Shown: positions 4,308 through 22,773 of the stretch, piece after piece | Numbering within the stretch: the first letter of the stretch is position 1 | Layout of the letters: each line of letters starts with the position of its first letter | From: Candidatus Helarchaeota archaeon | Lineage (GTDB): Archaea; Asgardarchaeota; Lokiarchaeia; Helarchaeales; RDOG01 | Assembly (NCBI GenBank): GCA_019058315.1 | Contig: JAHPZH010000001.1 | Location: forward strand, 96,001-160,000 | Length of the DNA: 64,000 nucleotides | Direction: 5' to 3' | Translations under genes and position numbers: made by a program | The notes under the pieces: model-generated | What the model was told of the DNA's origin: nothing | Databases searched by the model: none | The model's input: the letters and a program-made list of their open reading frames with translations, nothing else

Positions 4308-4841
4308 TTATAAAGCGAGCCCGAATTCATAAGCGTTTTTTAATTCTTTTTGATTATTTTTAATCTCTCCCCTCTCATAAGCAGATGCTAGTATCTTACC
4401 TGCAAATTCCATCCCCAAATAATCAAAAGACATTTTAAACATCTCAATTAATGGTCCACAAGCTTTTGGTCCTTCTTCTGATGGGGAAACAATAACTCCT
4501 TTTTTATTCTTTAATTTCTTAGTTTCAATAAACGGTCGCATTCTATCAATTAAAAGCTTCATCTGTCCAGTTGGGCCGTACCAATATATTGGAGTCCCAA
4601 AGATTATTAGATCGGCATTTTCCATCTTCGAATAAATTTCATGCATCATATCTTCTATAGTACAAATGAATAATCCTCTTTTACAATTACGACAATCGAT
4701 ACATGGAAGAATTTCATAATCATATAAGTAAATTTTTTCACTTATATGTCCATTCTCTTTAGCCCCCTCTAATATTTTTTCAACTAATATATCCGTATTG
4801 CTCCCTTTCCTAGGGCTTCCAATTAAAGCTAAAATCTTCAT
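4308..4841 (-). CDS. iron-sulfur flavoprotein (Isf)/NADPH-dependent FMN reductase family
   Basis: GSPRKGSNT FMN loop, C-x2-C-x2-C-x6-C (CIDCRNC...C), FGTPIYW, KLLIDR. Confidence 0.88.
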   Translation of the reverse strand: MKILALIGSPRKGSNTDILVEKILEGAKENGHISEKIYLYDYEILPCIDCRNCKRGLFICTIEDMMHEIYSKMENADLIIFGTPIYWYGPTGQMKLLIDRMRPFIETKKLKNKKGVIVSPSEEGPKACGPLIEMFKMSFDYLGMEFAGKILASAYERGEIKNNQKELKNAYEFGLAL

Positions 4842-4872
4842 AGTCAATCATTAAAATAGAGGGAAAATTTAA

Positions 4873-5565
4873 TCATACCTTTAAATCAAAAAACAAGTCA
4901 ATTCCATATTTATCATAAAGCTCATCAATCAGGTAAATCAATGGGTTTAAATGACTTTTATAACGATCCCAAACAAGATGAGTTGTTTTTTCTCTTCTTT
5001 GTGCAAAATGTAAGAATCCCTCGCTATCAAAACATGGATCTTTTGGTCGGGGCGTTACTTGAATCGTAGGAGGAACATCTGGATATTCTGCATTGAATAA
5101 AATTTTCGAAACTCTTACCACACCATCTCTCCATTTAGATGATACATAAATACCCTTTTCCGGGCGTTTTTTATCTATGTATTTCCATTCACTACCGTTT
5201 ATTTCCACTATGTATTTTAGATGGGTTTTAAACAACTCAGTTCCACTTTTAATTTTACTAGAAATACTCCCACCTATGGGTTCCGGAATCCAGTATATCT
5301 TATCTGTGTCTTGTGCTATTTCCCCTATCGTGTTGCGAAGAGATATTGGTACTTTTCGACCTTGTGTAATATAGTAAAGTTTTATTGTTAGCATGTTAAT
5401 TCCGACGTTTCTAACATTGCCATATCCTAAATTTAAAACGTCTAAGATTCGATCATTATATTTCCATAATAATCTACTGGCAACATCCCTGATAATCTCA
5501 TCTTCTTGAGATTCAACATAATCTGTGGTCCCAATAAGTGGATTAACCCAAGTTATTTCTTTCAA
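4873..5565 (-). CDS. ubiquitin-like domain (ending PEPIGG, aa 99) fused to an E2/UBC-fold domain
   Basis: aa 1-99 align with the ORF at 6522 (DKIYWxPEPIGG). The C-terminal part has UBC-like 'ILFNAEYPDVPP' and aligns with the ORF at 6870. Confidence 0.7.
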   Translation of the reverse strand: MKEITWVNPLIGTTDYVESQEDEIIRDVASRLLWKYNDRILDVLNLGYGNVRNVGINMLTIKLYYITQGRKVPISLRNTIGEIAQDTDKIYWIPEPIGGSISSKIKSGTELFKTHLKYIVEINGSEWKYIDKKRPEKGIYVSSKWRDGVVRVSKILFNAEYPDVPPTIQVTPRPKDPCFDSEGFLHFAQRREKTTHLVWDRYKSHLNPLIYLIDELYDKYGIDLFFDLKV

Positions 5566-5640
5566 TGTGTTTCCGTCTTTAATTTATTATCAATTATTTA
5601 GAAATTAAAATTAATATTTATAAATTAGGTTTTTAATTTG

Positions 5641-6405
5641 ATGAAAAGATTTTTCTTTGGTCCTGTTCTTTCTCGTAGATTGGGTTTTTCTTTAGGGATT
5701 GATATATTACCCGATAAAAAGACTTGTACTTTTGACTGTCTTTACTGTGAAATAGGAAAAACTCGACGAGTTACCTCCCCAAAAACCCGTTCTCCTTTCC
5801 TAATAGAAAATAAAAAGAATTTTGAATTACAATTAAGAAATATCTTATCTCAAGATATATTAATCGATACATTAACATTTGCAGGATATTCGGGTGAGGC
5901 AACATTAAATAGTGAATTAAATACATTTTTAAACATTACAAAATCTGTAAGATCTGACCTGCATAAAGAAAATATCCCAATATCCATTTTGACTAATTCC
6001 TCAACAATTAATTTTCCTGAAATTAGAAAAATATTAATGAATTTTGATAATATAGTTGCGAAATTAGATGTTGGAAATCAAGCTTCTTTTATGAAGGTGA
6101 ATCGTCCACATTTTTTAGTTCCACAAATTTCTGATATTATAAATGGTTTAAAGCAATTAAGGGAGGAGCTTGATAAGAATCGACTCGTTATTCAGACTCT
6201 TTTGTTTAGTGAAAATAATGATAGAAAAAACATTGATTCATTAATTGAAGCTTACAATATTATCAATCCAAATAAAATTCAACTTTACTCGATTGCCCGT
6301 CCACCCGCATATGCCGTAAAAAAAATAGATGGGCTTCAATTGGAACAGATAAAAAAGAATATGCAAGATGTATTAAAAACCAATATTAAAATTGAAACTT
6401 ATTAA
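5641..6405 (+). CDS. radical SAM Fe-S oxidoreductase (COG0731-like)
   Basis: FGPVLSRRLGFSLGIDI N-terminus, CTFDCLYC motif, LTNSS, AKLD. Confidence 0.85.
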   Translation: MKRFFFGPVLSRRLGFSLGIDILPDKKTCTFDCLYCEIGKTRRVTSPKTRSPFLIENKKNFELQLRNILSQDILIDTLTFAGYSGEATLNSELNTFLNITKSVRSDLHKENIPISILTNSSTINFPEIRKILMNFDNIVAKLDVGNQASFMKVNRPHFLVPQISDIINGLKQLREELDKNRLVIQTLLFSENNDRKNIDSLIEAYNIINPNKIQLYSIARPPAYAVKKIDGLQLEQIKKNMQDVLKTNIKIETY

Positions 6406-6521
6406 AAAGATATTTGTAGTATTGATTTTAAAATTTCATTAAACAAGAAAAACCAGAAAAATAAAAAAACATAATTTCTTTTATCCATTAATAAATTAAC
6501 TTATATTATGGTGCAAAATAG

Positions 6522-6830
6522 ATGCCAGAAATGACATATGTCTGCCCGCAAATAGGTAGTACAGATTATTTAGATTATGAAGAAGATACGACCTTCGAAG
6601 ATCAAATAAATGAACTAAAAGAGAAATATTTACGAGATATTCTTGATTACGTTCAGCAATTTCGAAATATACGTCAAAATATAGGATTAGATCAAATTAC
6701 TGTAAAGATACACTATATTGATGCTGAAGGTATCAAACAAACAATTGGACTTAAAACTTACGTTAAGGCAATGGCTGAACGTCATATTGATAAGATATAT
6801 TGGGAACCCGAACCCATTGGAGGGCATTAA
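6522..6830 (+). CDS. ubiquitin-like (beta-grasp) modifier precursor ending in GG-H
   Basis: 102 aa, C-terminus YWEPEPIGGH*. Paralogous to the N-terminus of 4873..5565, and near E2, JAB and E1 genes. Confidence 0.7.
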   Translation: MPEMTYVCPQIGSTDYLDYEEDTTFEDQINELKEKYLRDILDYVQQFRNIRQNIGLDQITVKIHYIDAEGIKQTIGLKTYVKAMAERHIDKIYWEPEPIGGH

Positions 6831-6869
6831 ACCAAACTTTTAATATAAGGGTATATCTAGAGGAAAAAA

Positions 6870-7232
6870 ATGCAGCAAACTTCTAAACAAATCTTTGCAA
6901 GTCATATTTACGATTTGACAGTTCGACCCGGTTATTATCGCTCTACATGGAAACTAATTAATAAAAAAATACCCTTAAAAGGAGCTTTCGGTCATTTTAT
7001 GGGCAAGGATTTTCGAGTAATTGTAATAAAAATCTTATTTAATTCAAAATATCCCGAAAATCCTCCAAAAATTATTAGCACTCCTCCTATCCGCGATGTT
7101 TGTTGGGATAATAAGGGTGTGTTACATTGGGCTAGATACGGGGGAGAGTTTGTATGGAGTAAATATAAAGATCACTCCAATCCATTAATTTATGTCGCAG
7201 ATGAAATTACTGAAAAATATAAAACCATGTAA
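6870..7232 (+). CDS. E2/UBC-fold protein with non-canonical active site
   Basis: 'IKILFNSKYPENPPKI' UBC signature, DVCWDNKGVLH in the HPN...C position, W..Y...NPL followed by a terminal helix. Has its own GAGG SD. Confidence 0.7.
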   Translation: MQQTSKQIFASHIYDLTVRPGYYRSTWKLINKKIPLKGAFGHFMGKDFRVIVIKILFNSKYPENPPKIISTPPIRDVCWDNKGVLHWARYGGEFVWSKYKDHSNPLIYVADEITEKYKTM

Positions 7233-7256
7233 AAAAAAAATTGATTTTTAGATCTA

Positions 7257-8834
7257 TTACTTTTTAATTATTATTGCCACTAACACTAGAATTACTATCG
7301 CCATAGCACCAATTATTATCAAGAGAATAAGAGGATCAATTGGAAAACCCGCACCTGTCGGTATAGGTATAAAATTATCCATAGGTTCTGTAGACACTAA
7401 TGAAACTTTTTGTGCATATATATCATAATCACTTAAGCTTCTATTATCCTGCCACGTTATGATAGCAACTCCAGAACTAACGTAAATAATCTCATGATTT
7501 TCTTGCAAACCATATTCTGTACATACTGGCAGACCCTTACCAACATATTGCAAAATACCATTTTTATCGAGCATTTGTGCATAGATTGATCCATTAGCAT
7601 CTTCTTCTTTATCTATCCAAGAGATAAATGAATTTCCTGAGGAGTCGCAGCAAATCCTAGACTGTTGTTGATCACTGGGTGAAGTACAAACAGGGGTACC
7701 ATTATTTCTCCATAATGTGGTGCCTATTGGGTTAATTTTTTGAGTATAGATATCCTCCTCATAAATATTTCGTAAATCCTGCCATGTAATAATTGCATTT
7801 CCCTCACTATCACAGCAAATTTTTGGATAGAATTGGCTATATTCTGCTGTACAAATTGGTGTGCCATTGAGAGTCCAATAAACAGTACCAGTTGAGTCGA
7901 TTTTTTGTGCATATATATCTGTATATGTACCGTTTCTATTATCCACCCAAGTGATAATTGCATTACCAGAACTATCACAGCAAATATCAGGCCAATATTG
8001 ACTGTCAGTTGCATTACAAATTACAGTACCATTGTCTTGCAATTGTGAATGACCTGTAGAATTAATAAATTGACAATAGATATCGTTATCTGATGTTGTC
8101 ATATTTCTATAGTCTTGCCAAGTAATAATTGCGTTTCCTGCACCATAAACACTAATTTTTGGAAATGTTTGGATGTTTATAGCATTGCAAATTATTTTTC
8201 CGTTAGTTGTCCATTGGACAACTCCACTCGAATTAATTCTCTGGGCATGGATATTAGATGTTGCAAATTCATCATTTATCCATGTAAGAATCGCACCGCC
8301 TAAATTATCGCTGCAAATTTCTATCCTTGATTCATCATTAGGCAAACCAGTAATTTGCACACCGTTGGCAGTCCATTGCGTAATCCCGTTTGCGTCCACT
8401 CTTTGAGCTTTAATATTTTGAGTATCTTCCCATGCGATGATTGCCCCCCCAGAACCATCAGAACATATCTGGGGAAGAGTTTGAGAACCAGGAGAGTTAC
8501 AAATTAATGTGCCGTTAACATCCCATAATGGATTCCCATTTGAATCGATTCTTTGAACATAAATACTAGAAATGTCTCTGGAATCCGCCCAAGTAATAAT
8601 TGCACCACCAGTTCCATCACTGCATATTTCAGGATTATATTGGTCTTGTGGCGTTTGTACACATACAGGTGTACCATTAGCTGCCCATTGCGTACTTAAA
8701 CCATTAGCCTTGAGTTTAGATTTCTCATCAATTTTTAAAAGTAAGACATTTTGATTGCTAAACCCTGTATATGAATTTATAGCTAAAATGGAAAACATCA
8801 AGATTGGGATTAAAATTAAAAACCTTTTCTTCAT
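7257..8834 (-). CDS. membrane-anchored secreted beta-propeller repeat protein
   Basis: N-terminal signal-like segment, eight ~55-60 aa repeats (P.ICxDxxG.AIITW.D...DIYAQK), C-terminal TM helix followed by KK. Confidence 0.75.
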   Translation of the reverse strand: MKKRFLILIPILMFSILAINSYTGFSNQNVLLLKIDEKSKLKANGLSTQWAANGTPVCVQTPQDQYNPEICSDGTGGAIITWADSRDISSIYVQRIDSNGNPLWDVNGTLICNSPGSQTLPQICSDGSGGAIIAWEDTQNIKAQRVDANGITQWTANGVQITGLPNDESRIEICSDNLGGAILTWINDEFATSNIHAQRINSSGVVQWTTNGKIICNAINIQTFPKISVYGAGNAIITWQDYRNMTTSDNDIYCQFINSTGHSQLQDNGTVICNATDSQYWPDICCDSSGNAIITWVDNRNGTYTDIYAQKIDSTGTVYWTLNGTPICTAEYSQFYPKICCDSEGNAIITWQDLRNIYEEDIYTQKINPIGTTLWRNNGTPVCTSPSDQQQSRICCDSSGNSFISWIDKEEDANGSIYAQMLDKNGILQYVGKGLPVCTEYGLQENHEIIYVSSGVAIITWQDNRSLSDYDIYAQKVSLVSTEPMDNFIPIPTGAGFPIDPLILLIIIGAMAIVILVLVAIIIKK

Positions 8835-8949
8835 TTTTAACAAATCCAATTTTTATTAAAATATATCAAATATACTGAGGTTATAACATATAAATTGGAG
8901 TAATAGTTCATAGAGAAATAGAATAATTAAGTTAGAAAGTCGTGTAGAA

Positions 8950-10023
8950 ATGCGAGTAATTATAGATTCGTCGGTAATTGAATCATGTAAGCAAACAATT
9001 CAAGAATGTTATGGTGAAAAAGCGTTTAAAGAAGTAGGGGGGTATATTTTAGGAATGTTTGACGGCGAAAATTTCCAAGTTAAATCCCTTTATCTTGATA
9101 AATATGCTGAATCGACTTCTATCAGAATTAAACTAAGCGTTGATGCATTCCATGAAGTTGAGGAAATACTTTCCCAATCTCCTGAAATGATGTATATTGG
9201 GACATGGCATGTTCATCCTGGGACAGATAAACCCGCATACTCAAATGTTGATGTTTCAACTCTATTTTTAGAACGGGTAATTATAGACACAGATAATCCT
9301 GAAAGTTTGAAATGCCCAAAGATTCATATAATTTTTAATAATTCTCTAACTGAATATAGTTGTTATACTATGGATATATTTTTTAATTTTTTATGCGAAC
9401 CTCTTGATTCATCTGTTGCCAAAAATTTAGTTGAAGCTGAATTGCTTGAAATTGGGCTAGATGCCCTTACGGAATCTAAAACCTTGCTAAAACTAGAAAC
9501 TCTTGAAAGTTATATCAATTTACAAAAAAATATCGAAGAAGTGTATAATAATCTCGATTTAATTTCTGACCAAATCAATTTTGCACTTGACTTTTTTAAT
9601 GAACTTGAATGGTATAATAAAGTTGAAAATAAAATCGAAAAAATAATTAAGAATGAGATTAAAAATGGAGAAAGAATTGGAGTAATCTCTTCTGAAAACG
9701 AGAAAAAAATCGAAAGCTTGAAATATAGACCTAAGAATATAAAAAATTCATATACAGATGGATCTTTAGTAGGTTTTTGGGTATTATTTCCATACGAAAG
9801 TATCAGCGATATGTTTTTGAAAATTTTTTATGCTAATTTCTTCAAAAAAATTGAGACTGAACCTGGAGATGTCTTCTTATTCTTCCTAGTTCAAAAAATT
9901 AAGGAAGAAATCATGATTAAACCGTTTTTTTTAAATTTCACATCATTTGAAGGAATATCATATATAGAATTAGAAATGACTTTGATTGAGGATGACAATG
10001 AAAATAATGTTTCAGAATCCTGA
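8950..10023 (+). CDS. JAB/MPN+ (JAMM) metalloprotease with C-terminal extension
   Basis: EVGGYILG and GTWHVHPGTDKPAYSNVD (E...HxH...S..D). Confidence 0.85.
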   Translation: MRVIIDSSVIESCKQTIQECYGEKAFKEVGGYILGMFDGENFQVKSLYLDKYAESTSIRIKLSVDAFHEVEEILSQSPEMMYIGTWHVHPGTDKPAYSNVDVSTLFLERVIIDTDNPESLKCPKIHIIFNNSLTEYSCYTMDIFFNFLCEPLDSSVAKNLVEAELLEIGLDALTESKTLLKLETLESYINLQKNIEEVYNNLDLISDQINFALDFFNELEWYNKVENKIEKIIKNEIKNGERIGVISSENEKKIESLKYRPKNIKNSYTDGSLVGFWVLFPYESISDMFLKIFYANFFKKIETEPGDVFLFFLVQKIKEEIMIKPFFLNFTSFEGISYIELEMTLIEDDNENNVSES

Positions 10024-11077
10024 TACGGGTGAAACAATATATATCGAGGATGAGGAGCTTCTTATCAGAGATATTGCCAATAAAATAATGAAAGAATACA
10101 ATCTAGAAAAACCACCAATCTTCTTCACCCTTATGAAAGAAGACCCAGTATCAGAAACTTATCTAGAAGAAGATGATAAATTAAAAACAATTAATGAAGA
10201 AAAATTGGATGTAAAGACACCAATATGGTGGCGATCGTCAGAAATTGATCTAGATTTAATTTATAAACTTCGAACAGAACGCTATGATAGATCGGGTTAT
10301 GAGCTAGAAAAAATCGGAAAAACCAAGGTATTAATTGCAGGTGTGGGATTATTAGGAGCGGATATTGCGTTTGATTGCGCAGTTTTAGGAATAAAGGACC
10401 TTACAATAATTGATTATGGGTCTGTAGATTGGTTTAATATCTATCGACAAAGTCTCTATTCCAAAAAAGATGTATTTAAATCGAAAGTTGAAGTGGCAAA
10501 AGAAAATCTCGAGGATATGGGGGGTGTAAATGTTAAATCATTAAAAATTGAGATTCCAAGTTTTATTTATCTGCCAGAAGATAAAAGTATAATACAAAAT
10601 TCCATTTTAAAAATTGAGCCTGAAGTTAAAAAATGTGATATAATAATTACTGCTCTTGATACATTCAGCGCTAGAATGATAATGCAAACTTTAGCTTTAG
10701 CAAATGATAAAATCCTTATTAATACGGCGGCTGGTCTAGTAGGTGGGGTAGTTCAATTAGTGAGAATTAAGCAAAATGATCCTTGCTTGGCATGTGGTAT
10801 TTATTTTGATAGAAATCAAGATGTGGGTGCGTGCACTTTGGCATCGTTTGGTACTCCTAAAATCATATCTGGAATTACAATGGAAATTTTGACAAATCTG
10901 ATTGAAGAAAGAGAAATCAAATATAACCATTTTAAATATATTCCCCAAACTTACCAAATAGAACAAAGTAATTTTATAAAAGGCAAAGAGTTCTGTGATT
11001 TTTGCGATAGGGAGAAAGGAATTATATTTAAATATAAAAATGGAGAAAAAAAAGCCCTAATTGATTGGTTATATTGA
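9998..11077 (+). CDS. E1-like (ThiF/MoeB) adenylating enzyme with N-terminal Ubl-like domain
   Basis: GVGLLG, DYGSVDWFNIYRQ, SKVEVAK, DTFSAR, two Zn CxxC motifs (PCLAC, FCDFC) and a candidate catalytic Cys (VGACTL). Overlaps the JAB gene. Confidence 0.88.
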   Translation: MKIMFQNPDTGETIYIEDEELLIRDIANKIMKEYNLEKPPIFFTLMKEDPVSETYLEEDDKLKTINEEKLDVKTPIWWRSSEIDLDLIYKLRTERYDRSGYELEKIGKTKVLIAGVGLLGADIAFDCAVLGIKDLTIIDYGSVDWFNIYRQSLYSKKDVFKSKVEVAKENLEDMGGVNVKSLKIEIPSFIYLPEDKSIIQNSILKIEPEVKKCDIIITALDTFSARMIMQTLALANDKILINTAAGLVGGVVQLVRIKQNDPCLACGIYFDRNQDVGACTLASFGTPKIISGITMEILTNLIEEREIKYNHFKYIPQTYQIEQSNFIKGKEFCDFCDREKGIIFKYKNGEKKALIDWLY

Positions 11078-11214
11078 TTTATATGAAAATTTATTTATTT
11101 AAAGATAAATAATAACATTTTTTAATATAATTTTTAATGTAAAAGCACGCATTAATTTATTATTGTCATACTAAATTAGTTTCAAGATTTCAAATAAATA
11201 GGAGAAAAATTAAG

Positions 11215-12060
11215 ATGGTTGAAATTACATTAACCCCTAAAAAAGATGCATTCTCTTCAAAAATTCCTCTTGAAGCAGAAATTATTACAACAGATAATCT
11301 CGCTGGAAAATCTATTGAGGAAATAAAAAAACTGCCAGTATGGAAAGGAAATCGTGAAAAAAATCTAGGAGAATTTTTCGATGTAAAAGGAGGAAAAGCA
11401 GATGCTCCAGCAGATATAAAAATAATCATCGATGGTGATATTCCGATGGTAAAAGGGATTGGAACAAAGATGACTGCTGGTGAAATAGTTGTCAAAGGTA
11501 AAGCAGGAATGCACACAGCAGATCTATTAAATGGTGGAAAAATCACAGTGGAAGGAGACGTAGATGACTTCTGCGGCTCTGAGATGAAAAAGGGAGAATT
11601 TATTGTGAATGGAAATGCAGGAAATTACTTTATCGCAGCAGCTAGGGGTAATTGGCAAGGTATGACTGGTGGAAAAGTTGTAGTTAATGGCAGTGTTGGT
11701 TCTGAAATGGCTGCTTGGGTTCGTGGTAAGACGACCCGGATAGAAATCAATGGAAATGTTAAAGGTTTTGCGGCTGTTCATATGCACGGAGGATTGCTTA
11801 TCATAAATGGAGATGTTTTAGATAGATTAGGAGCTGAAATGGCAAGGGGAATTATTATAGTTAATGGAAAATTGGAATCTATTCTACCATCATTTAAATA
11901 TTCAGGGGAAGTGCAAGAGATAGAAGTGAATGAAACTGAAAAAATTACTGGAAAGTATTTACAATTCAATGGTGATTACGCCCAATTAGGTGTAAAATCA
12001 AAATATTTTGGTAGAATTTTCCTCGCTGCGGATAAGAATAAACATTTAATTCCAAAATAA
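11215..12060 (+). CDS. fwdC: formylmethanofuran dehydrogenase subunit C
   Basis: PLEAEIIT...VWKGNR..LGEFFDV, GxGxxMxxG beta-helix repeats, ILPSF. Confidence 0.9.
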   Translation: MVEITLTPKKDAFSSKIPLEAEIITTDNLAGKSIEEIKKLPVWKGNREKNLGEFFDVKGGKADAPADIKIIIDGDIPMVKGIGTKMTAGEIVVKGKAGMHTADLLNGGKITVEGDVDDFCGSEMKKGEFIVNGNAGNYFIAAARGNWQGMTGGKVVVNGSVGSEMAAWVRGKTTRIEINGNVKGFAAVHMHGGLLIINGDVLDRLGAEMARGIIIVNGKLESILPSFKYSGEVQEIEVNETEKITGKYLQFNGDYAQLGVKSKYFGRIFLAADKNKHLIPK

Positions 12061-16838: not shown

Positions 16839-18242
16839 TTGGATTGGAAACCCGAAATAAATGAATTATATGAAAAAGTAACAAGTCAAGTACCAGAAGC
16901 ATTTCGAGATGCTGTAAAACCAATGCTTAGGCAAGCTGCAGAGAAAGCTGCGATACTCCGTAATTCTGCCTATGTAAGCGAAGATGATTTACTGTCATCT
17001 CTATTTGATATTACACCAGAGGCATTTAAACCAACGGTTGTATCAGATTTGGAAAATTTAGGAATTGCTACAGGAAAATATATTGAACTATCAGAGATAA
17101 GAAAAGACTATTCACGCACTTGGGATGAGATTAGTGGAGCATTTCTACCAGGGGTGTATCATTTTACTATGTTTTTAACTGATAGATGTAATCAGAAATG
17201 TATGCATTGTGCTGCTGAAAATCCTATACATCGTCCCGAACTCTCAACTGAACAATGGATTCAAATTATAGAAAATGTTGAACAGACCCTTAGAAAACGT
17301 GGTAGAAGGGGTTGCTATATATGGTTTGGTGGTGATCCAACTTTACGTAAAGATTTGAAAGATCTTATAAAATACTGTGGGGAAAAAGGTTATTACCAAG
17401 CAGTTTCAACTAATGGAATGCTATTTACAGAAGAACTTGCAAAACTTTGTGCAGAAGTTAAAATGTCACATGTTTTTATTAGCTTTGATAGTGTTTATCC
17501 TGAAAGAGCTGCAAAGATAAGAGGAGTTCCAAAAGCTTACGAGGCAGCAGAAAAAGCTATTAAATTAGCACTGAAATATGGCCATTTTGTAATTTGTACA
17601 GCAACAGTACAAAAAACCAATTTTGACGAACTTGATGAAATAAAACAACTCATGGAGAGTTGGGGTGTAATCCCTTATTTCAGAGCCGTTATAAAACAGA
17701 GAAGTGCTGCAGTAAACTGGGATGAGATTGGACTAAGTCATGAGGAATATAAAAAGTTCTATGAATTTAAATATAAACATGTTGTTGAGGCTATTAGAAA
17801 AGGTGAGGGTTCATCTCTCAATAAATTCTATACTTATGATATGGTTCCTTTTATGGAATGTCCAATAAATATAAAAGAACTTACTGCACTTGAATGGGGA
17901 GTTGGTTGTCAAGCATGTCGGTCAGTTTCGGGTATAGATATAAATGGAGATTTTTTTCCATGTGATTATCCTTCAGAATTAACTCTTGGAAACGTATTAA
18001 AACAACCCTTCGATGAAATAATGGAATCTCAGCTTTTTAAGGATATAAGAGATAGAAAAAGAATCGGCAAATGCGCATCATGTCACCATCTCGAATTGTG
18101 TGGAGGAGGTTGTCGAGTACATGCAGAATGTGAGACTGGAGATTTTTTTGAATCATTTCCGTATTGTTGGCATGAAATGGATCATAAACATGAAGAAATT
18201 GCTGAAGTTCCTAAAGAAAAAGAGATACCCGCAAGTAAATAA
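16839..18242 (+). CDS. radical SAM/SPASM protein with N-terminal PCP_red/DUF2621-like helical domain
   Basis: CNQKCMHC, FGGDP, SPASM cysteines (CQAC...PC...KCASC....CGGGCR...YC). Confidence 0.9.
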   Translation: MDWKPEINELYEKVTSQVPEAFRDAVKPMLRQAAEKAAILRNSAYVSEDDLLSSLFDITPEAFKPTVVSDLENLGIATGKYIELSEIRKDYSRTWDEISGAFLPGVYHFTMFLTDRCNQKCMHCAAENPIHRPELSTEQWIQIIENVEQTLRKRGRRGCYIWFGGDPTLRKDLKDLIKYCGEKGYYQAVSTNGMLFTEELAKLCAEVKMSHVFISFDSVYPERAAKIRGVPKAYEAAEKAIKLALKYGHFVICTATVQKTNFDELDEIKQLMESWGVIPYFRAVIKQRSAAVNWDEIGLSHEEYKKFYEFKYKHVVEAIRKGEGSSLNKFYTYDMVPFMECPINIKELTALEWGVGCQACRSVSGIDINGDFFPCDYPSELTLGNVLKQPFDEIMESQLFKDIRDRKRIGKCASCHHLELCGGGCRVHAECETGDFFESFPYCWHEMDHKHEEIAEVPKEKEIPASK

Positions 18243-18266
18243 TTTAAATGAATATGGTGTAAATTC

Positions 18267-19679
18267 ATGGAATGGGAAGAAGAAACCAAAGATTTATACA
18301 AAAAAATAACTGAAAATATTCCTGAAGGCTTTCGGAACTCAGTAAAACCCTTAATTTACGAAGCAGCAGAGAAAAGATGCGTAGAACGTAATGGATCCTA
18401 TGTTAACGAAGCAGATTTAATAACTGCAATTTTTGATATAACTCCAGAAGCATTTAAAGCTATGATGACTGATGATCTAAAATCCTTGGGGATTAACGTT
18501 GAAAGATACATTGAACTTAAAGATATTAGAGATCGATATAGACTTTCATGGCAAAAGCTAGAAGATGCTTTTCATCCGGGAAATGTACACTTTGCAATGT
18601 ATATTACAGAAAAGTGTAATCAAAAATGTTTGCATTGTGCCGCAGATGAAAAAGTTGAACGCCCTGAGTTAACAACAGAACAATGGTGTGAAATAATAGA
18701 GAATATTGAGACAGGATTGAGAAAAAATGGTCGACGTGCTTGTTTTATATGGTTTGGAGGAGAGCCCACATTGCGGGAAGACATCCATGATATCATGAAG
18801 TTCTGTGGTGATAAAGGTTACTATCATGCAATAATAACCAATGGTGTGAGGTTTGCAGAAGAATTTGCTAAATCTTGCTCTGATAATGGAATGAGCCACG
18901 TTTTTGTGAGTTTCGACAGTGCAGATCCTATAAAAAACGATAAAATACGCGGAATGCCCGGTGGAAAAACCTTAGAATCGGCAAAGAAAGCAATCGATAA
19001 TTGCTTGAAGTATGGTTTATTCGTTTGCTCATCAATAACCGTAATGAAACATAATATTGATGAACTTGAAGATCTAAAAGCAATATCCGAGAGTTGGGGT
19101 TCACAACCATATTTTAGAGCAGTGGTTAAACAAAATAGAGCTGCTGATTATTGGGATGAAATTGGTTTAAGTCAAGAGGACTATAAAAAATTATATGAAT
19201 TTAAGTATAAACATGCCATAGAAGCTATAAGGGATGGAAAGGCAGGAACTCTACCAGCATACGAAATATATGAAATGACACCCTTTATGGAATGTCCTAA
19301 GGACGACAAGGAAATGACTGGAATTGAGTGGGGTGTTGGATGTCTCGCTTGCAGAACTATGATGGGCATTGGGGTTGATGGAACTATATATCCTTGTGGT
19401 TATCCTACTAAACTGACACTAGGTAATGCATTGAAAGATAAATTTGAAGATGTTCTTAATACACAAATTTATAAAGATATTCGAGATAGGAAGCGCACTG
19501 GTAAATGTGGAGAATGTCACCACCTTAAATATTGCGGTGGAGGATGTAGAGTGCATACAGAATGCGAAACTGGGGACTTCTTCGCTTCTTTCCCTTACTG
19601 CTGGCATGAAATGGATCATGAACATGAAAAACTAGAAGGTTTTGTTAAGGAAAAAGAATTAGAAATTATAAAGAAATAA
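18267..19679 (+). CDS. radical SAM/SPASM protein (paralogue of 16839) with the same N-terminal helical domain
   Basis: CNQKCLHC, FGGEP and SPASM cysteines; colinear with the upstream ORF over its full length. Confidence 0.9.
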   Translation: MEWEEETKDLYKKITENIPEGFRNSVKPLIYEAAEKRCVERNGSYVNEADLITAIFDITPEAFKAMMTDDLKSLGINVERYIELKDIRDRYRLSWQKLEDAFHPGNVHFAMYITEKCNQKCLHCAADEKVERPELTTEQWCEIIENIETGLRKNGRRACFIWFGGEPTLREDIHDIMKFCGDKGYYHAIITNGVRFAEEFAKSCSDNGMSHVFVSFDSADPIKNDKIRGMPGGKTLESAKKAIDNCLKYGLFVCSSITVMKHNIDELEDLKAISESWGSQPYFRAVVKQNRAADYWDEIGLSQEDYKKLYEFKYKHAIEAIRDGKAGTLPAYEIYEMTPFMECPKDDKEMTGIEWGVGCLACRTMMGIGVDGTIYPCGYPTKLTLGNALKDKFEDVLNTQIYKDIRDRKRTGKCGECHHLKYCGGGCRVHTECETGDFFASFPYCWHEMDHEHEKLEGFVKEKELEIIKK

Positions 19680-19689
19680 AAATCAAAAA

Positions 19690-20103
19690 ATGGAGTTGAT
19701 GAAAATTATAAACACGAAAGAAGAATGGGAATCTTATTTAGATAAATTCATAGAGGGTTATAATATTTTACCTGAGTTACCTGCAATAATTCAATCCATA
19801 GCCCCATTGGTTTTTAATTATGTAATAACTGATCGCCCAGAAATGAGCTATTGGTTTTTAATAGAAAAAGACAAAATAAGTTGGGGATTGGGGCAATATT
19901 CTGGAACTAATCATCCAACTATCATCCATAAGACTGATTTTGAGACCATGAAAAAGGTTAATTCAGGTGAGACTGATCCTATTCAAGCAACAATGTTGGG
20001 GACTTATAATGTCGATGGTGATGTTTCTAAACTCATGGCATGTGCATCCTTACTTCCGCTTGGAGTAAAAGCACATGCTTATGCTCTAGAAAAAATAAAA
20101 TAA
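19690..20103 (+). CDS. SCP2 sterol/lipid-binding domain protein
   Basis: 'TDFETMKKVNSGETDPIQATMLGTYNVDGD' fits the SCP2 pattern (G..DP..A...G...V.GD). Confidence 0.75.
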   Translation: MELMKIINTKEEWESYLDKFIEGYNILPELPAIIQSIAPLVFNYVITDRPEMSYWFLIEKDKISWGLGQYSGTNHPTIIHKTDFETMKKVNSGETDPIQATMLGTYNVDGDVSKLMACASLLPLGVKAHAYALEKIK

Positions 20104-20115
20104 TGGAGTAATAAA

Positions 20116-21324
20116 ATGAATTTTAAATATAATACAGATATAGAAAAGATGCATTATGATATTATAAAGGCTGCTAAACTCGCTGATGCTCCATACAATG
20201 AAGATATAATTCAAAGAATTCTTAAAGCTTATAAGGATTTTTTTAGAGGTTCGGTTGTTACCTTTGTAACTTCAACTAAGCCAAAGAACAAACGCACTCT
20301 GTCAATCCGTTATGTGGAAATAGATGTTAAACATGATCCTTATGAAATTGCGATATCTAATAATCTACTTAAACAAGAAAAACATTTAATCCACCATTTA
20401 TTAACCGAAATTAAAAGTAATTATCCCATTATGGGGTATGGAGTGGATGCTGACGTAAATTATGGTGTAACGAAAATTTGGAGTTTCTTTCAAATTCCAC
20501 AACCCTTAGAAAAAGCATTTAAAACACCTGCAGTTCCTGAAAGTATCCAGAAATTTACAGATTATTTTAAAAAATATGACCTTGATGTTTTTCATCTATT
20601 TGCTTTAGATTTCCGTAATAAAACTGCTAATGTATATTTTATGGTGAAGGATCCAAAAGCAAACCCAGCTGATAAGGTTGCGAACATGATTTCAGACTTA
20701 GGTTTAAAAGTTCCATCACAAGAGATACTTGAACATTGCTCCAAAGCATTAACAATTTATCTTACATTTGCGTGGGAATCCTCCATGGTTGATAGAATAT
20801 GTTTCGGAACTGCCGTTGATGATCCTAGCTTGATCCCAACACATTTAGACCCATTATTAAAAAAGTATTCACAAAATGCACCATTTCAATCAAAAAATCG
20901 CCTATTTATTTACAGTATAACACCATCACGTTCAGGTGACTATATCAAAATCGAAAATGATTATATGGGGGAGATGATTAATTTAATGAAATCTGGAATT
21001 CAAGCTGAAGTTTGGATGGATGACTTAAAAAAACAAAGAGAAAATGTTCAGCCAAAAACTGTTGAACTAAGTGGGGTTAAGTGGGTAGATGGAGTTTCAA
21101 TATTATTTGAAAAAATTACAGATGATATTCCCGAGACGTTCCGTTCATTTGTAAAACCTATGCTGCTTGAAACTGCCGAAAAAAAAAGTCAAATTAGAAA
21201 TGGAAATGGAATTACTGAATCGGATCTTATAACTGCACTATTAGAAATAACACCAGAACCATTCAAACCTGACGCAATTAATAATTTGAAAAAATTAGGA
21301 GTAGATATGCAAAAATATATTTAA
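20116..21324 (+). CDS. ABBA-type soluble aromatic prenyltransferase (NphB/CloQ family) with C-terminal helical tag domain
   Basis: YGVDADV..GVTKIWSFF, ALDF..KTANVYF, IYLTFAW....DRICF and YIKIENDY match PT-barrel strands of NphB/CloQ. Confidence 0.85.
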   Translation: MNFKYNTDIEKMHYDIIKAAKLADAPYNEDIIQRILKAYKDFFRGSVVTFVTSTKPKNKRTLSIRYVEIDVKHDPYEIAISNNLLKQEKHLIHHLLTEIKSNYPIMGYGVDADVNYGVTKIWSFFQIPQPLEKAFKTPAVPESIQKFTDYFKKYDLDVFHLFALDFRNKTANVYFMVKDPKANPADKVANMISDLGLKVPSQEILEHCSKALTIYLTFAWESSMVDRICFGTAVDDPSLIPTHLDPLLKKYSQNAPFQSKNRLFIYSITPSRSGDYIKIENDYMGEMINLMKSGIQAEVWMDDLKKQRENVQPKTVELSGVKWVDGVSILFEKITDDIPETFRSFVKPMLLETAEKKSQIRNGNGITESDLITALLEITPEPFKPDAINNLKKLGVDMQKYI

Positions 21325-21363
21325 TTCTTAATTTTTTGATCACAAAATAAAAATTAAAAGGAA

Positions 21364-22773
21364 GTGATTGCAATTCAATTTACTGTAGCAACAAATTGGG
21401 ATTTTAAACTAATAGATGAATTAGCTAAATACCCTGTGAAAGATATTTATGGAGTTGCAAAATTTTCGATAGTTGGTCATGGTAGACCCTCATTTTTATT
21501 AAATGAAGTTTCAGAAGAAGAAATTGCGGAGTATATTCGAAAAATTCATGAGAAAAAAATGAAATTTTCTTATTTATTAAATGCACCTTGTATGAATAAC
21601 ATGGAATATGATGCTGAATATCATAAAAAGCTGTTAAATTACATTCAATGGATTTGTGATATTGGATCAGATAATGTAATAGTTACAACACCTTTTTTAA
21701 TCAGTCTTATTAAAGAACAATTTCCAAAATTGAAAATTCGGGTTTCAACTATAGCCCACGTTAATAGTGTGAATCGAGCAAAATTCTATGAAGCATTGGG
21801 TGCAGAAGAAATCACTCCTGATGTAATGATTAATCGCGATTTTAAGACTTTGATAAAAATTAAAAAAGCAGTGAAATGTGACATTGTTCTGCTTTTAACT
21901 GATGGTTGTTTATATCAATGTCCCTTTAGATATTATCATTATAATATCCTTGGGCATTCTTCCCAATCTTCCCACATACTTGGAGGTAATTATGTAGATT
22001 TTTGCATATTAAATTGTAGTGCTATTAAATTCTCTAATCCTACCGAAGTAATTAAAGCAAGATGGGTTCGCCCTGAAGATTTATCCCATTATGAAGCTAT
22101 CGGGATTGATAAATTTAAAATTGCTGGACGCCGTATGCCTACTAAATGGATTCTTCGAGCAGTGAAAGCATTTTCTTCTCGAAAATATAATGGGAATCTT
22201 ATAGATATAATCCAAGGTTTTTCTATGTCCGTTGGGGTTGAGAAAGATCCAAATGCTAAATTTATCGACACGATTGATAAAGAGCCTAAAGCAAAACTTA
22301 TAATTGATAATACTAAATTGGATGGTTTTATTGATTTTTTTAAAAAACAAGATTGTATATCAATGTGTGATGACTGCAAATATTGTGAAAATTGGGCAAA
22401 AAAAGCTGTAATTCTTGATAAAGAGCAAGCTCCTAGGTATGTCGAATCATTAGAAGGTTATATTAAAGATATCACTACGAGCCGAGAATTTGGTATTGAA
22501 TCGGTTAAACCAGAAAAGAAGAAGAAAAAAGGCTTAGAATGGAATCCTGAAACTGAAAAAATTTTTGAGGATTTAATTCAACTATCTCCCCAACAATTCC
22601 AATCAATGGCAAAGATGGTTATTTCTTCAATGTCAGAAGAAAATGCAAAAAAAAGAGATTCTAAGGTAGTAGAAAACCAAGATATTGTAAAAGCATTTAT
22701 TGCTGGAACTCCTGAACCTTTTCAAGCAGATATGAGAGAAGGACTTAAAAAATATGGTCTATTAAACGAATGA
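21364..22773 (+). CDS. U32 family Fe-S protein (O2-independent hydroxylase type) with C-terminal helical tag domain
   Basis: GHGR, YLLNAPC, STIAHV, GCLYQCPFRYYH, DFC...C, WVRPEDL, FKIAGR, extra C..C..C..C cluster. Confidence 0.85.
   Translation: MIAIQFTVATNWDFKLIDELAKYPVKDIYGVAKFSIVGHGRPSFLLNEVSEEEIAEYIRKIHEKKMKFSYLLNAPCMNNMEYDAEYHKKLLNYIQWICDIGSDNVIVTTPFLISLIKEQFPKLKIRVSTIAHVNSVNRAKFYEALGAEEITPDVMINRDFKTLIKIKKAVKCDIVLLLTDGCLYQCPFRYYHYNILGHSSQSSHILGGNYVDFCILNCSAIKFSNPTEVIKARWVRPEDLSHYEAIGIDKFKIAGRRMPTKWILRAVKAFSSRKYNGNLIDIIQGFSMSVGVEKDPNAKFIDTIDKEPKAKLIIDNTKLDGFIDFFKKQDCISMCDDCKYCENWAKKAVILDKEQAPRYVESLEGYIKDITTSREFGIESVKPEKKKKKGLEWNPETEKIFEDLIQLSPQQFQSMAKMVISSMSEENAKKRDSKVVENQDIVKAFIAGTPEPFQADMREGLKKYGLLNE

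What the first reader, a model, noticed from the sequence alone, without database searches (positions are those of the whole stretch)
9998..10250. E1 carries its own GG-less copy of the same Ubl family at its N-terminus
Seen: E1 'MFQNPDTGETIYIEDEELLIRDIANKIMKEYN...PIWW' resembles the Ubl 'TWVNPLIGTTDYVESQEDEIIRDVASRLLWKYN...KIYW' but has no GG. This ties the JAB-E1 pair to the Ubl/E2 genes despite the intervening propeller gene. Known: eukaryotic E1s recruit E2 through a C-terminal ubiquitin-fold domain (UFD). Inference: an independently acquired N-terminal UFD analogue.
Basis: partly seen in the sequence, partly recalled or inferred. Interest (0 to 1): 0.7.

Follow-up and report, generated by a model that had tools for sequence, protein, structure and literature searches.

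The report
E1 with built-in ubiquitin-fold E2 dock
In a group of Asgard archaea (close relatives of eukaryotes), the enzyme that starts a ubiquitin-like tagging cascade has an uncuttable ubiquitin-shaped domain at its front, and modelling suggests this domain holds the next enzyme in place the way the autophagy enzyme Atg7 does, but with a different fold.

Summary
Residues 1-80 of the E1 (9998-11077) fold as a beta-grasp domain with no Gly-Gly, and it is kept in all 7 Helarchaeales genomes and in about a dozen scattered, partly bacterial, Ubl-E2-JAB-E1 operons. 'Same Ubl family' is only moderately supported. The quoted pair is the best of 246 pairings, and the direct profile match covers only 37 residues. 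A compact modifier from three other Asgard genomes bridges the two families and lifts the match to full length (HH prob 94%, score 41.6, against 24-27 for ubiquitin, MoaD and UFD). A controlled complex model (0.62 vs best control 0.29) puts E2 on this domain, at its most conserved residues. The geometry is not UFD-like: the domain meets the E2 backside sheet while the E2 active-site face meets the other protomer's adenylation domain, as in Atg7, which is also the E1 core's best structural match. The pass may come from memory of solved complexes. Sister systems lack the domain, so it is a later add-on, not a universal need. The propeller is a recent insertion; synteny, not the domain, ties the operon together. 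Verdict: new variant of a known kind.

The parts
9998..10237 (+). E1 N-terminal beta-grasp domain (E1N, residues 1-80), no Gly-Gly; predicted E2-docking face: residues 4, 6, 8, 10, 11, 13, 45, 50, 51, 53, 70, 73-75, 77
   Evidence: fold; conservation: Q6, T44, P75 invariant; predicted interface
9998..11077 (+). E1 (359 aa): ThiF/MoeB-type adenylation domain closest in structure to Atg7; two CxxC Zn motifs; invariant crossover-loop Cys279 (nt 10832-10834), inferred catalytic
8950..10023 (+). JAB/JAMM peptidase with intact E..HxH..S..D motif plus an unassigned C-terminal domain; overlaps the E1 start by 26 nt; fused to the E1 in several relatives
   Evidence: (JAB E 1.6e-10)
6522..6830 (+). Stand-alone modifier (102 aa), beta-grasp with extra helix, ends PIGG plus one residue
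6870..7232 (+). Minimal E2 (UBC fold, 120 aa); invariant Cys78 (nt 7101-7103) in a D-x-C motif that aligns with H-P-C in sister systems
4873..5565 (-). Second paralogue pair as Ubl-(PIGG)-E2 fusion (230 aa); split into two genes in some Helarchaeales
7257..8849 (-). Repeat-rich membrane-anchored 'propeller' gene: a member of a roughly 30-copy family in this genome, absent at this position in relatives; not part of the system

Best explanation
E1N is a non-cleavable beta-grasp docking domain on a homodimeric, Atg7-like E1 of a four-part Ubl-E2-JAB-E1 conjugation system. Proposed cycle: (1) JAB trims the tail or fused E2 after PIGG (inferred from JAB family and tails of 1-13 residues). (2) The E1 adenylation domain adenylates the GG end and takes it onto Cys279 (inferred from invariant motifs and Atg7 homology). 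(3) E1N of one protomer binds the backside beta-sheet of E2 through its exposed b1/b2/b3/b5 face and holds the E2 active-site loop against the other protomer, so transfer to E2 Cys78 is in trans (predicted, not shown). (4) E2 passes the modifier to an unknown target; no E3 is encoded nearby. E1N probably arose once, as a duplicate of the system's ancestral compact modifier that fused to the E1 and lost its glycine end (about 0.65).
Against: The complex may pass from memory of Atg7-Atg3/Atg10 or ubiquitin-E2 backside structures (warning; PMC11343110). One control reached 0.29 with the E1 replaced. Cys78 and Cys279 are not among the low-error contacts, so the transfer geometry is not shown. Sister systems in G123, G073, G062 and L173 have the same parts but an E1 without E1N, so E2 loading can apparently work without it. 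Subset profiles disagree on origin: bacterial E1N vs Asgard ubiquitin 37, vs bacterial modifier 13; distinct beta-grasp families also score 32-39 with each other. No biochemistry, and no target.
Confidence: 0.6

Rival explanations
1. E1N binds something other than E2, most likely the JAB protein (its C-terminal domain) or a substrate/adaptor; the modelled E2 contact is likeness to solved Ubl-E2 complexes.
For: JAB and E1 overlap or abut in most loci and are fused in several. In some Helarchaeales JAB-E1 sit apart from Ubl-E2 (L056). Domain-less E1s exist beside E2s.
Against: The controlled model passes with E2, on conserved residues. In G002, G004 and L055 it is the E1 that is separated from JAB, while JAB stays with Ubl-E2. 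Domain-less E1s are also JAB-linked or JAB-fused.
Confidence: 0.18
2. E1N is a structural or auto-regulatory modifier mimic: it stabilises the E1 dimer or occupies the modifier site until the real modifier arrives.
For: It resembles the modifier. Ubl-ThiF fusions that coexist with a free ThiS are known and were suggested to have a different, unknown role (PMC1779556).
Against: It lacks the modifier's invariant positions (D15, N49, G70 equivalents) and the GG tail that enters the adenylation site. In the complex model its conserved face is occupied by E2.
Confidence: 0.1
3. Same docking function, different origin: E1N was captured from an unrelated ubiquitin-type beta-grasp protein, and the likeness to the modifier is generic fold similarity.
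For: Direct match limited to b1-b2-a1; weak hits to ubiquitin chains in PDB (E 0.3-2.5) and to RA_2/UBX/TUG-UBL Pfams; bacterial E1N vs Asgard ubiquitin prob 90%; the quoted pair is the top of its distribution.
Against: The compact modifier of the sister clade matches both the operon modifier (prob 96%) and E1N (prob 91%, 75 columns) but not ubiquitin (prob 1%); the combined profile favours the modifier family over all controls.
Confidence: 0.3
4. The operon is a sulfur-carrier system (MoaD/ThiS-like), and E1N is the kind of accessory Ubl seen on ThiF/MoeB fusions; no protein conjugation takes place.
For: The modifier has a MoaD-like extra helix and scores 31-35 against Asgard MoaD; top curated HMM for the E1 is ThiF; a radical SAM gene and fwdC are nearby.
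Against: A UBC-fold E2 with an invariant cysteine and a JAB travel with the E1 in archaeal and bacterial loci; no rhodanese, MoaE or ThiG recurs among neighbours; the radical SAM neighbour is seen only in the window, L042 and L172.
Confidence: 0.07

Closest known systems
Atg7 with Atg3/Atg10 (autophagy E1 and E2s)
   Different: The N-terminal domain is an 80-residue beta-grasp, not the 288-residue Atg7 NTD; far below the curated Atg7 HMM cut-off (57 vs 571 bits); modifier ends PIGG and has a MoaD-like helix; a JAB, not Atg4, is the protease; no sign of lipid conjugation.
C-terminal UFD of canonical E1s (UBA1, UBA2, UBA3) and of Asgard ubiquitin E1s
   Same: A ubiquitin-fold domain inside the E1 that recruits E2.
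   Different: N-terminal, not C-terminal; on a homodimer without IAD/SCCH; predicted to bind the E2 sheet in trans rather than helix A in cis (PMC12355090); profile score against Asgard UFD only 22-24. This genome has separate canonical E1-UFD/E2/ubiquitin operons.
Bacterial E1-E2-JAB-Ubl systems: CBASS Cap2/Cap3, BilABCD, Bub
   Same: Same parts list in a compact operon, no E3, JAB-E1 and Ubl-E2 fusions; Cap2 is described as Atg7-like (10.1101/2023.09.26.559546).
   Different: No CD-NTase; no E2-E1 fusion; no IAD/CYS domain (BilD has no UFD either); E1 keeps a catalytic Cys, unlike BubCD (PMC11601596); PADLOC matches cover only the generic JAB and ThiF cores; vertically kept in all Helarchaeales rather than in defence islands.
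N-terminal Ubl-ThiF/MoeB fusions (Campylobacter ThiF; Thaumarchaeota Ubl-E1-TBP; Bathyarchaeota ubiquitin-ThiF)
   Same: Same domain order, Ubl then E1, alongside a free modifier (PMC1779556, PMC2948915; Atlas clusters; P0051).
   Different: Those are described in thiamine/sulfur contexts with no role assigned; their N-domains are not retrieved by the E1N profile; here E2 and JAB are constant partners.
Non-covalent ubiquitin-UbcH5 and GABARAP-ATG3 backside binding
   Same: A beta-grasp protein on the E2 face opposite the active site (PMC11343110).
   Different: Here the beta-grasp is fused to the E1 and would serve loading, not chain building or discharge.

Membership tests
Operon modifier (PIGG Ubl) family | Beta-grasp fold | tested here: met
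   E1N; modifier
Operon modifier (PIGG Ubl) family | Full-length profile homology above other beta-grasp families | tested here: inconclusive
   41.6 / prob 94% over 76 columns with bridging members vs 24-27 for controls, but subsets disagree and unrelated beta-grasp families score 32-39
Operon modifier (PIGG Ubl) family | C-terminal Gly(-Gly) that can be exposed by JAB | tested here: not met
   No GG at positions 84-85 in 45 orthologues
Operon modifier (PIGG Ubl) family | Family-invariant residues (D15, K35, Y36, N49, G70, W94) and inserted helix | tested here: not met
   Only the Y36 and W94 equivalents are roughly kept; no inserted helix. Compact modifiers also lack the helix
Ubiquitin-fold domain (UFD) of canonical E1 | Located at the C-terminus of an E1 with IAD/AAD/SCCH | tested here: not met
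   N-terminal, single adenylation domain
Ubiquitin-fold domain (UFD) of canonical E1 | Binds E2 helix A through an acidic patch, in cis | tested here: inconclusive
   Low-error contacts are on the E2 sheet, helix A is not named; unnamed residues are uncertain and the result is a model
Ubiquitin-fold domain (UFD) of canonical E1 | Ubiquitin-fold domain needed for E2 charging | not testable with these tools
   Needs a deletion and charging assay; the model supports binding
Atg7 | MoeB-like homodimeric adenylation domain with crossover-loop catalytic Cys | tested here: met
Atg7 | ATG7_N-type N-terminal domain (about 290 aa) | tested here: not met
   N-domain is 80 aa and beta-grasp
Atg7 | Curated HMM TIGR01381 cut-off | tested here: not met
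   57 bits vs 571; sister E1s 76 bits; other Asgard E1s 51 or less
Atg7 | Orthology by phylogeny | not testable with these tools
   No eukaryotic Atg7 sequence could be brought into the script box by reference
CBASS Cap2 / Bil / Bub | E2-E1 fusion with CD-NTase (Cap2); IAD+CYS E1 (Type II BilD); Cys-less E1 (BubCD) | tested here: not met
   Domain layout and neighbours
CBASS Cap2 / Bil / Bub | Anti-phage activity | not testable with these tools
   No assay

The most novel reading that the evidence does not exclude
This Asgard system (with its domain-less sister form, whose E2 has H-P-C and whose compact modifier ends in aromatic-Gly like Atg8/Atg12) is the nearest prokaryotic relative of the Atg7-Atg3/Atg10 autophagy conjugation machinery, and E1N is an early solution for backside, in-trans E2 docking made by recycling the modifier itself, later replaced by the Atg7 N-terminal domain.
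Probability: 0.2. Interest if true: 0.92.

Novelty: new variant of a known kind. Interest (0 to 1): 0.7.

Why it matters
How E1 enzymes came to recruit E2 enzymes is an open step in the origin of ubiquitin-like signalling. Known solutions are the C-terminal UFD, the Atg7 N-terminal domain, the UBA5 tail, E2-E1 fusion (Cap2) and direct binding (BilD). If the model is right, this is a further one: a ubiquitin fold used in the Atg7 position. Natural versions with and without the domain exist as sister clades, so the gain can be tested with four small soluble proteins. The same work would test whether Asgard archaea hold an Atg7/Atg3-like cascade next to their canonical ubiquitin system. No description of this operon was found in the papers searched, but the library lacks most subscription journals.

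Tried and rejected
1. Pfam, NCBIfam and PADLOC name neither the modifier, the E2 nor E1N above cut-off. 2. ESM Atlas feature search with E1N gave no usable hit and held no model; with the compact fusion only leads under 0.9 (YukD-UQ_con clusters). 4. HMMs of modifier and E1N do not find each other in the genome's 22,907 ORFs (E about 1-4). 5. My first control profiles held wrong ORFs and were rebuilt. 6. Two hits of the 1.84-billion search (mussel repeat, fish CD22) were rejected as repeat artefacts. 7. No RNA holder listed; contigs of the likely source run span 4800-11300 in one piece without differences, which is not independent. 8. Sigma-70 promoter scan at chance level and not suited to archaea. 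9. No recurrent E3 or target gene among neighbours. 10. The JAB C-terminal domain does not match its N-terminal domain or Pfam. 11. Upstream starts at 9986 and the later ATG at 10007 were set aside in favour of 9998 by alignment. 12. The E2 profile was not found in 390 of 400 Asgard genomes searched, many incomplete. 13. Trees left out several outgroup rows that lacked the anchor motif or had long branches, and are midpoint-rooted; direction of transfer between archaea and bacteria was not resolved, and some rows labelled bacterial have no taxonomy.

Full report
WHAT IS THERE. The window comes from a Helarchaeales-type Asgard archaeon: the nearest E1 homologues are named Helarchaeota. Between 4873 and 11077 lie a Ubl-E2 fusion (minus strand), a radical SAM gene, a stand-alone Ubl, an E2, a repeat-rich gene on the minus strand, a JAB peptidase and a ThiF-family E1. 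The flagged interval is residues 1-84 of the E1, counted from the Met at 9998, which lines up with most orthologues.

SAME FAMILY? Profile against profile gave prob 88-91%, but over the first 37 residues only; 0 of 200 column shuffles reached the score. I built control profiles from Asgard ubiquitin, MoaD and C-terminal UFDs. E1N scored 38 with the modifier and 22-24 with the controls, yet unrelated beta-grasp families scored 32-39 with each other, and the second halves did not match. With more bacterial members, bacterial E1N was closer to Asgard ubiquitin (37) than to its own modifier (13). A bridge then turned up: three other Asgard genomes and two further proteins carry a compact modifier fused to a related E2. 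Its profile matches the operon modifier (prob 96%, 82 columns) and E1N (prob 91%, 75 columns) but not ubiquitin (1%). The merged modifier profile matches E1N over 76 columns at 41.6, prob 94%. I put descent from the modifier family at about 0.65. As a functional member it fails: no GG, and most invariant residues are gone.

DISTRIBUTION AND CONTEXT. The full-length E1 with its N-domain is in all 7 Helarchaeales genomes and was not found in 54 other genomes of the class. Ubl-E2-JAB-E1 are contiguous in G001, G003, G005, G006 and further metagenome contigs. A close relative has the same gene order without the propeller, and the propeller belongs to a family of about 30 copies in this genome, so it is a late insertion. 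The same operon, with Ubl-E2 and JAB-E1 fusions, occurs in scattered bacteria or unassigned contigs (Cloacimonadota and Anaerolineae are named). Among 1.84 billion proteins the E1N profile finds only E1s of this family, fragments, and two repeat artefacts. In a tree of adenylation domains, E1s with the domain form one clade (100/99), the domain-less E1s are its sister, and together they stand apart from MoeB-type and UFD-bearing Asgard E1s (100/98; midpoint root, limited outgroups). One gain is the simplest reading. The domain-less E1 of G123 has an in-frame stop just before its start, and the G062/G073 JAB-E1 fusions leave no room for the domain.

COMPARISON WITH KNOWN SYSTEMS. N-terminal Ubl-E1 fusions are known from thiamine and sulfur contexts, with no role assigned (PMC1779556, PMC2948915). 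E1-E2-JAB-Ubl operons without an E3 are known from CBASS, Bil and Bub (10.1101/2023.09.26.559546, PMC11601596), but their defining layouts are not met. It works like Atg7 by prediction; it is not an Atg7 by domain content or HMM cut-off, and orthology could not be tested. It is a UFD analogue only in the loose sense of a ubiquitin fold that holds E2. The paper searches turned up no description of this operon or of a beta-grasp N-domain docking E2; the library is incomplete.

VERDICT. Real, conserved and more interesting than a simple fusion, but the binding is a model and the family link is moderate. New variant of a known kind; interest 0.70. The most novel reading, that this is the Asgard precursor of Atg7-Atg3/Atg10, is not excluded (0.2).

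Noticed in passing
L152:266-2971 (G123), L153:1-2369 (G073), L154:2934-5452 (G062), L173:512-3610: Sister system in other Asgard lineages: compact Ubl ending Trp-Gly or Tyr-Gly fused to an E2 with H-P-C or H-Q-C, a JAB, and an E1 without the N-domain; a second small JAB follows in L152 and L173. Atg8/Atg12-like end and ATG3/ATG10-like motif; worth its own study.
   Followed up: partly
window 6870-7232 and 4873-5268: Both E2s have their only invariant Cys at the HPN-asparagine position and His at the canonical catalytic-Cys position.
   Followed up: partly
window 4873-5565; L048-L052: Helarchaeales keep a second Ubl/E2 paralogue pair (6 of 7 genomes), fused in some and split in others, usually away from the main operon; one E1 would serve two modifiers and two E2s.
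   Followed up: partly
window 9400-10023: The JAB protein has a conserved C-terminal region of about 200 residues with no Pfam match, present in archaeal and bacterial members.
   Followed up: partly
window 7257-8849: Repeat-rich, membrane-anchored protein with about 30 close paralogues across this genome, one of them in an open frame of about 2,860 codons (C3:1402738-1411320); no Pfam match above cut-off.
   Followed up: partly
L081:3914-5859, L082:3743-8113, L083:2966-5331 (same genome): Three separate eukaryote-like E1/E2/Ubl or JAB clusters, with C-terminal extensions on the E1s (ubiquitin-like in L081), coexist with this system.
   Followed up: partly
window 16839-22773: Cluster of two radical SAM-SPASM paralogues, an SCP2 protein, an aromatic prenyltransferase (PF11468, E 1.8e-63) and a U32 protein, several carrying a DUF2621-like helical domain: a possible prenylation/biosynthetic cluster, unusual for an archaeon.
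   Followed up: no
L152:6061-8712: Next to the G123 system: a HEAT-repeat protein with a C-terminal ubiquitin domain, a GTPase-like protein and a long Cys-rich zinc-finger membrane protein.
   Followed up: no
L053:7150-10004: Bacterial locus (Tad/Flp pilus neighbours) with two Ubl-E2 units, the second fused through a long charged linker to JAB; its E2 has Asp in place of the conserved His.
   Followed up: partly
L043:13504-17537, L045:7968-11998: In G002 and G004 the E1 lies just upstream of what look like methyl-coenzyme M reductase-like genes (judged by eye, not tested).
   Followed up: no
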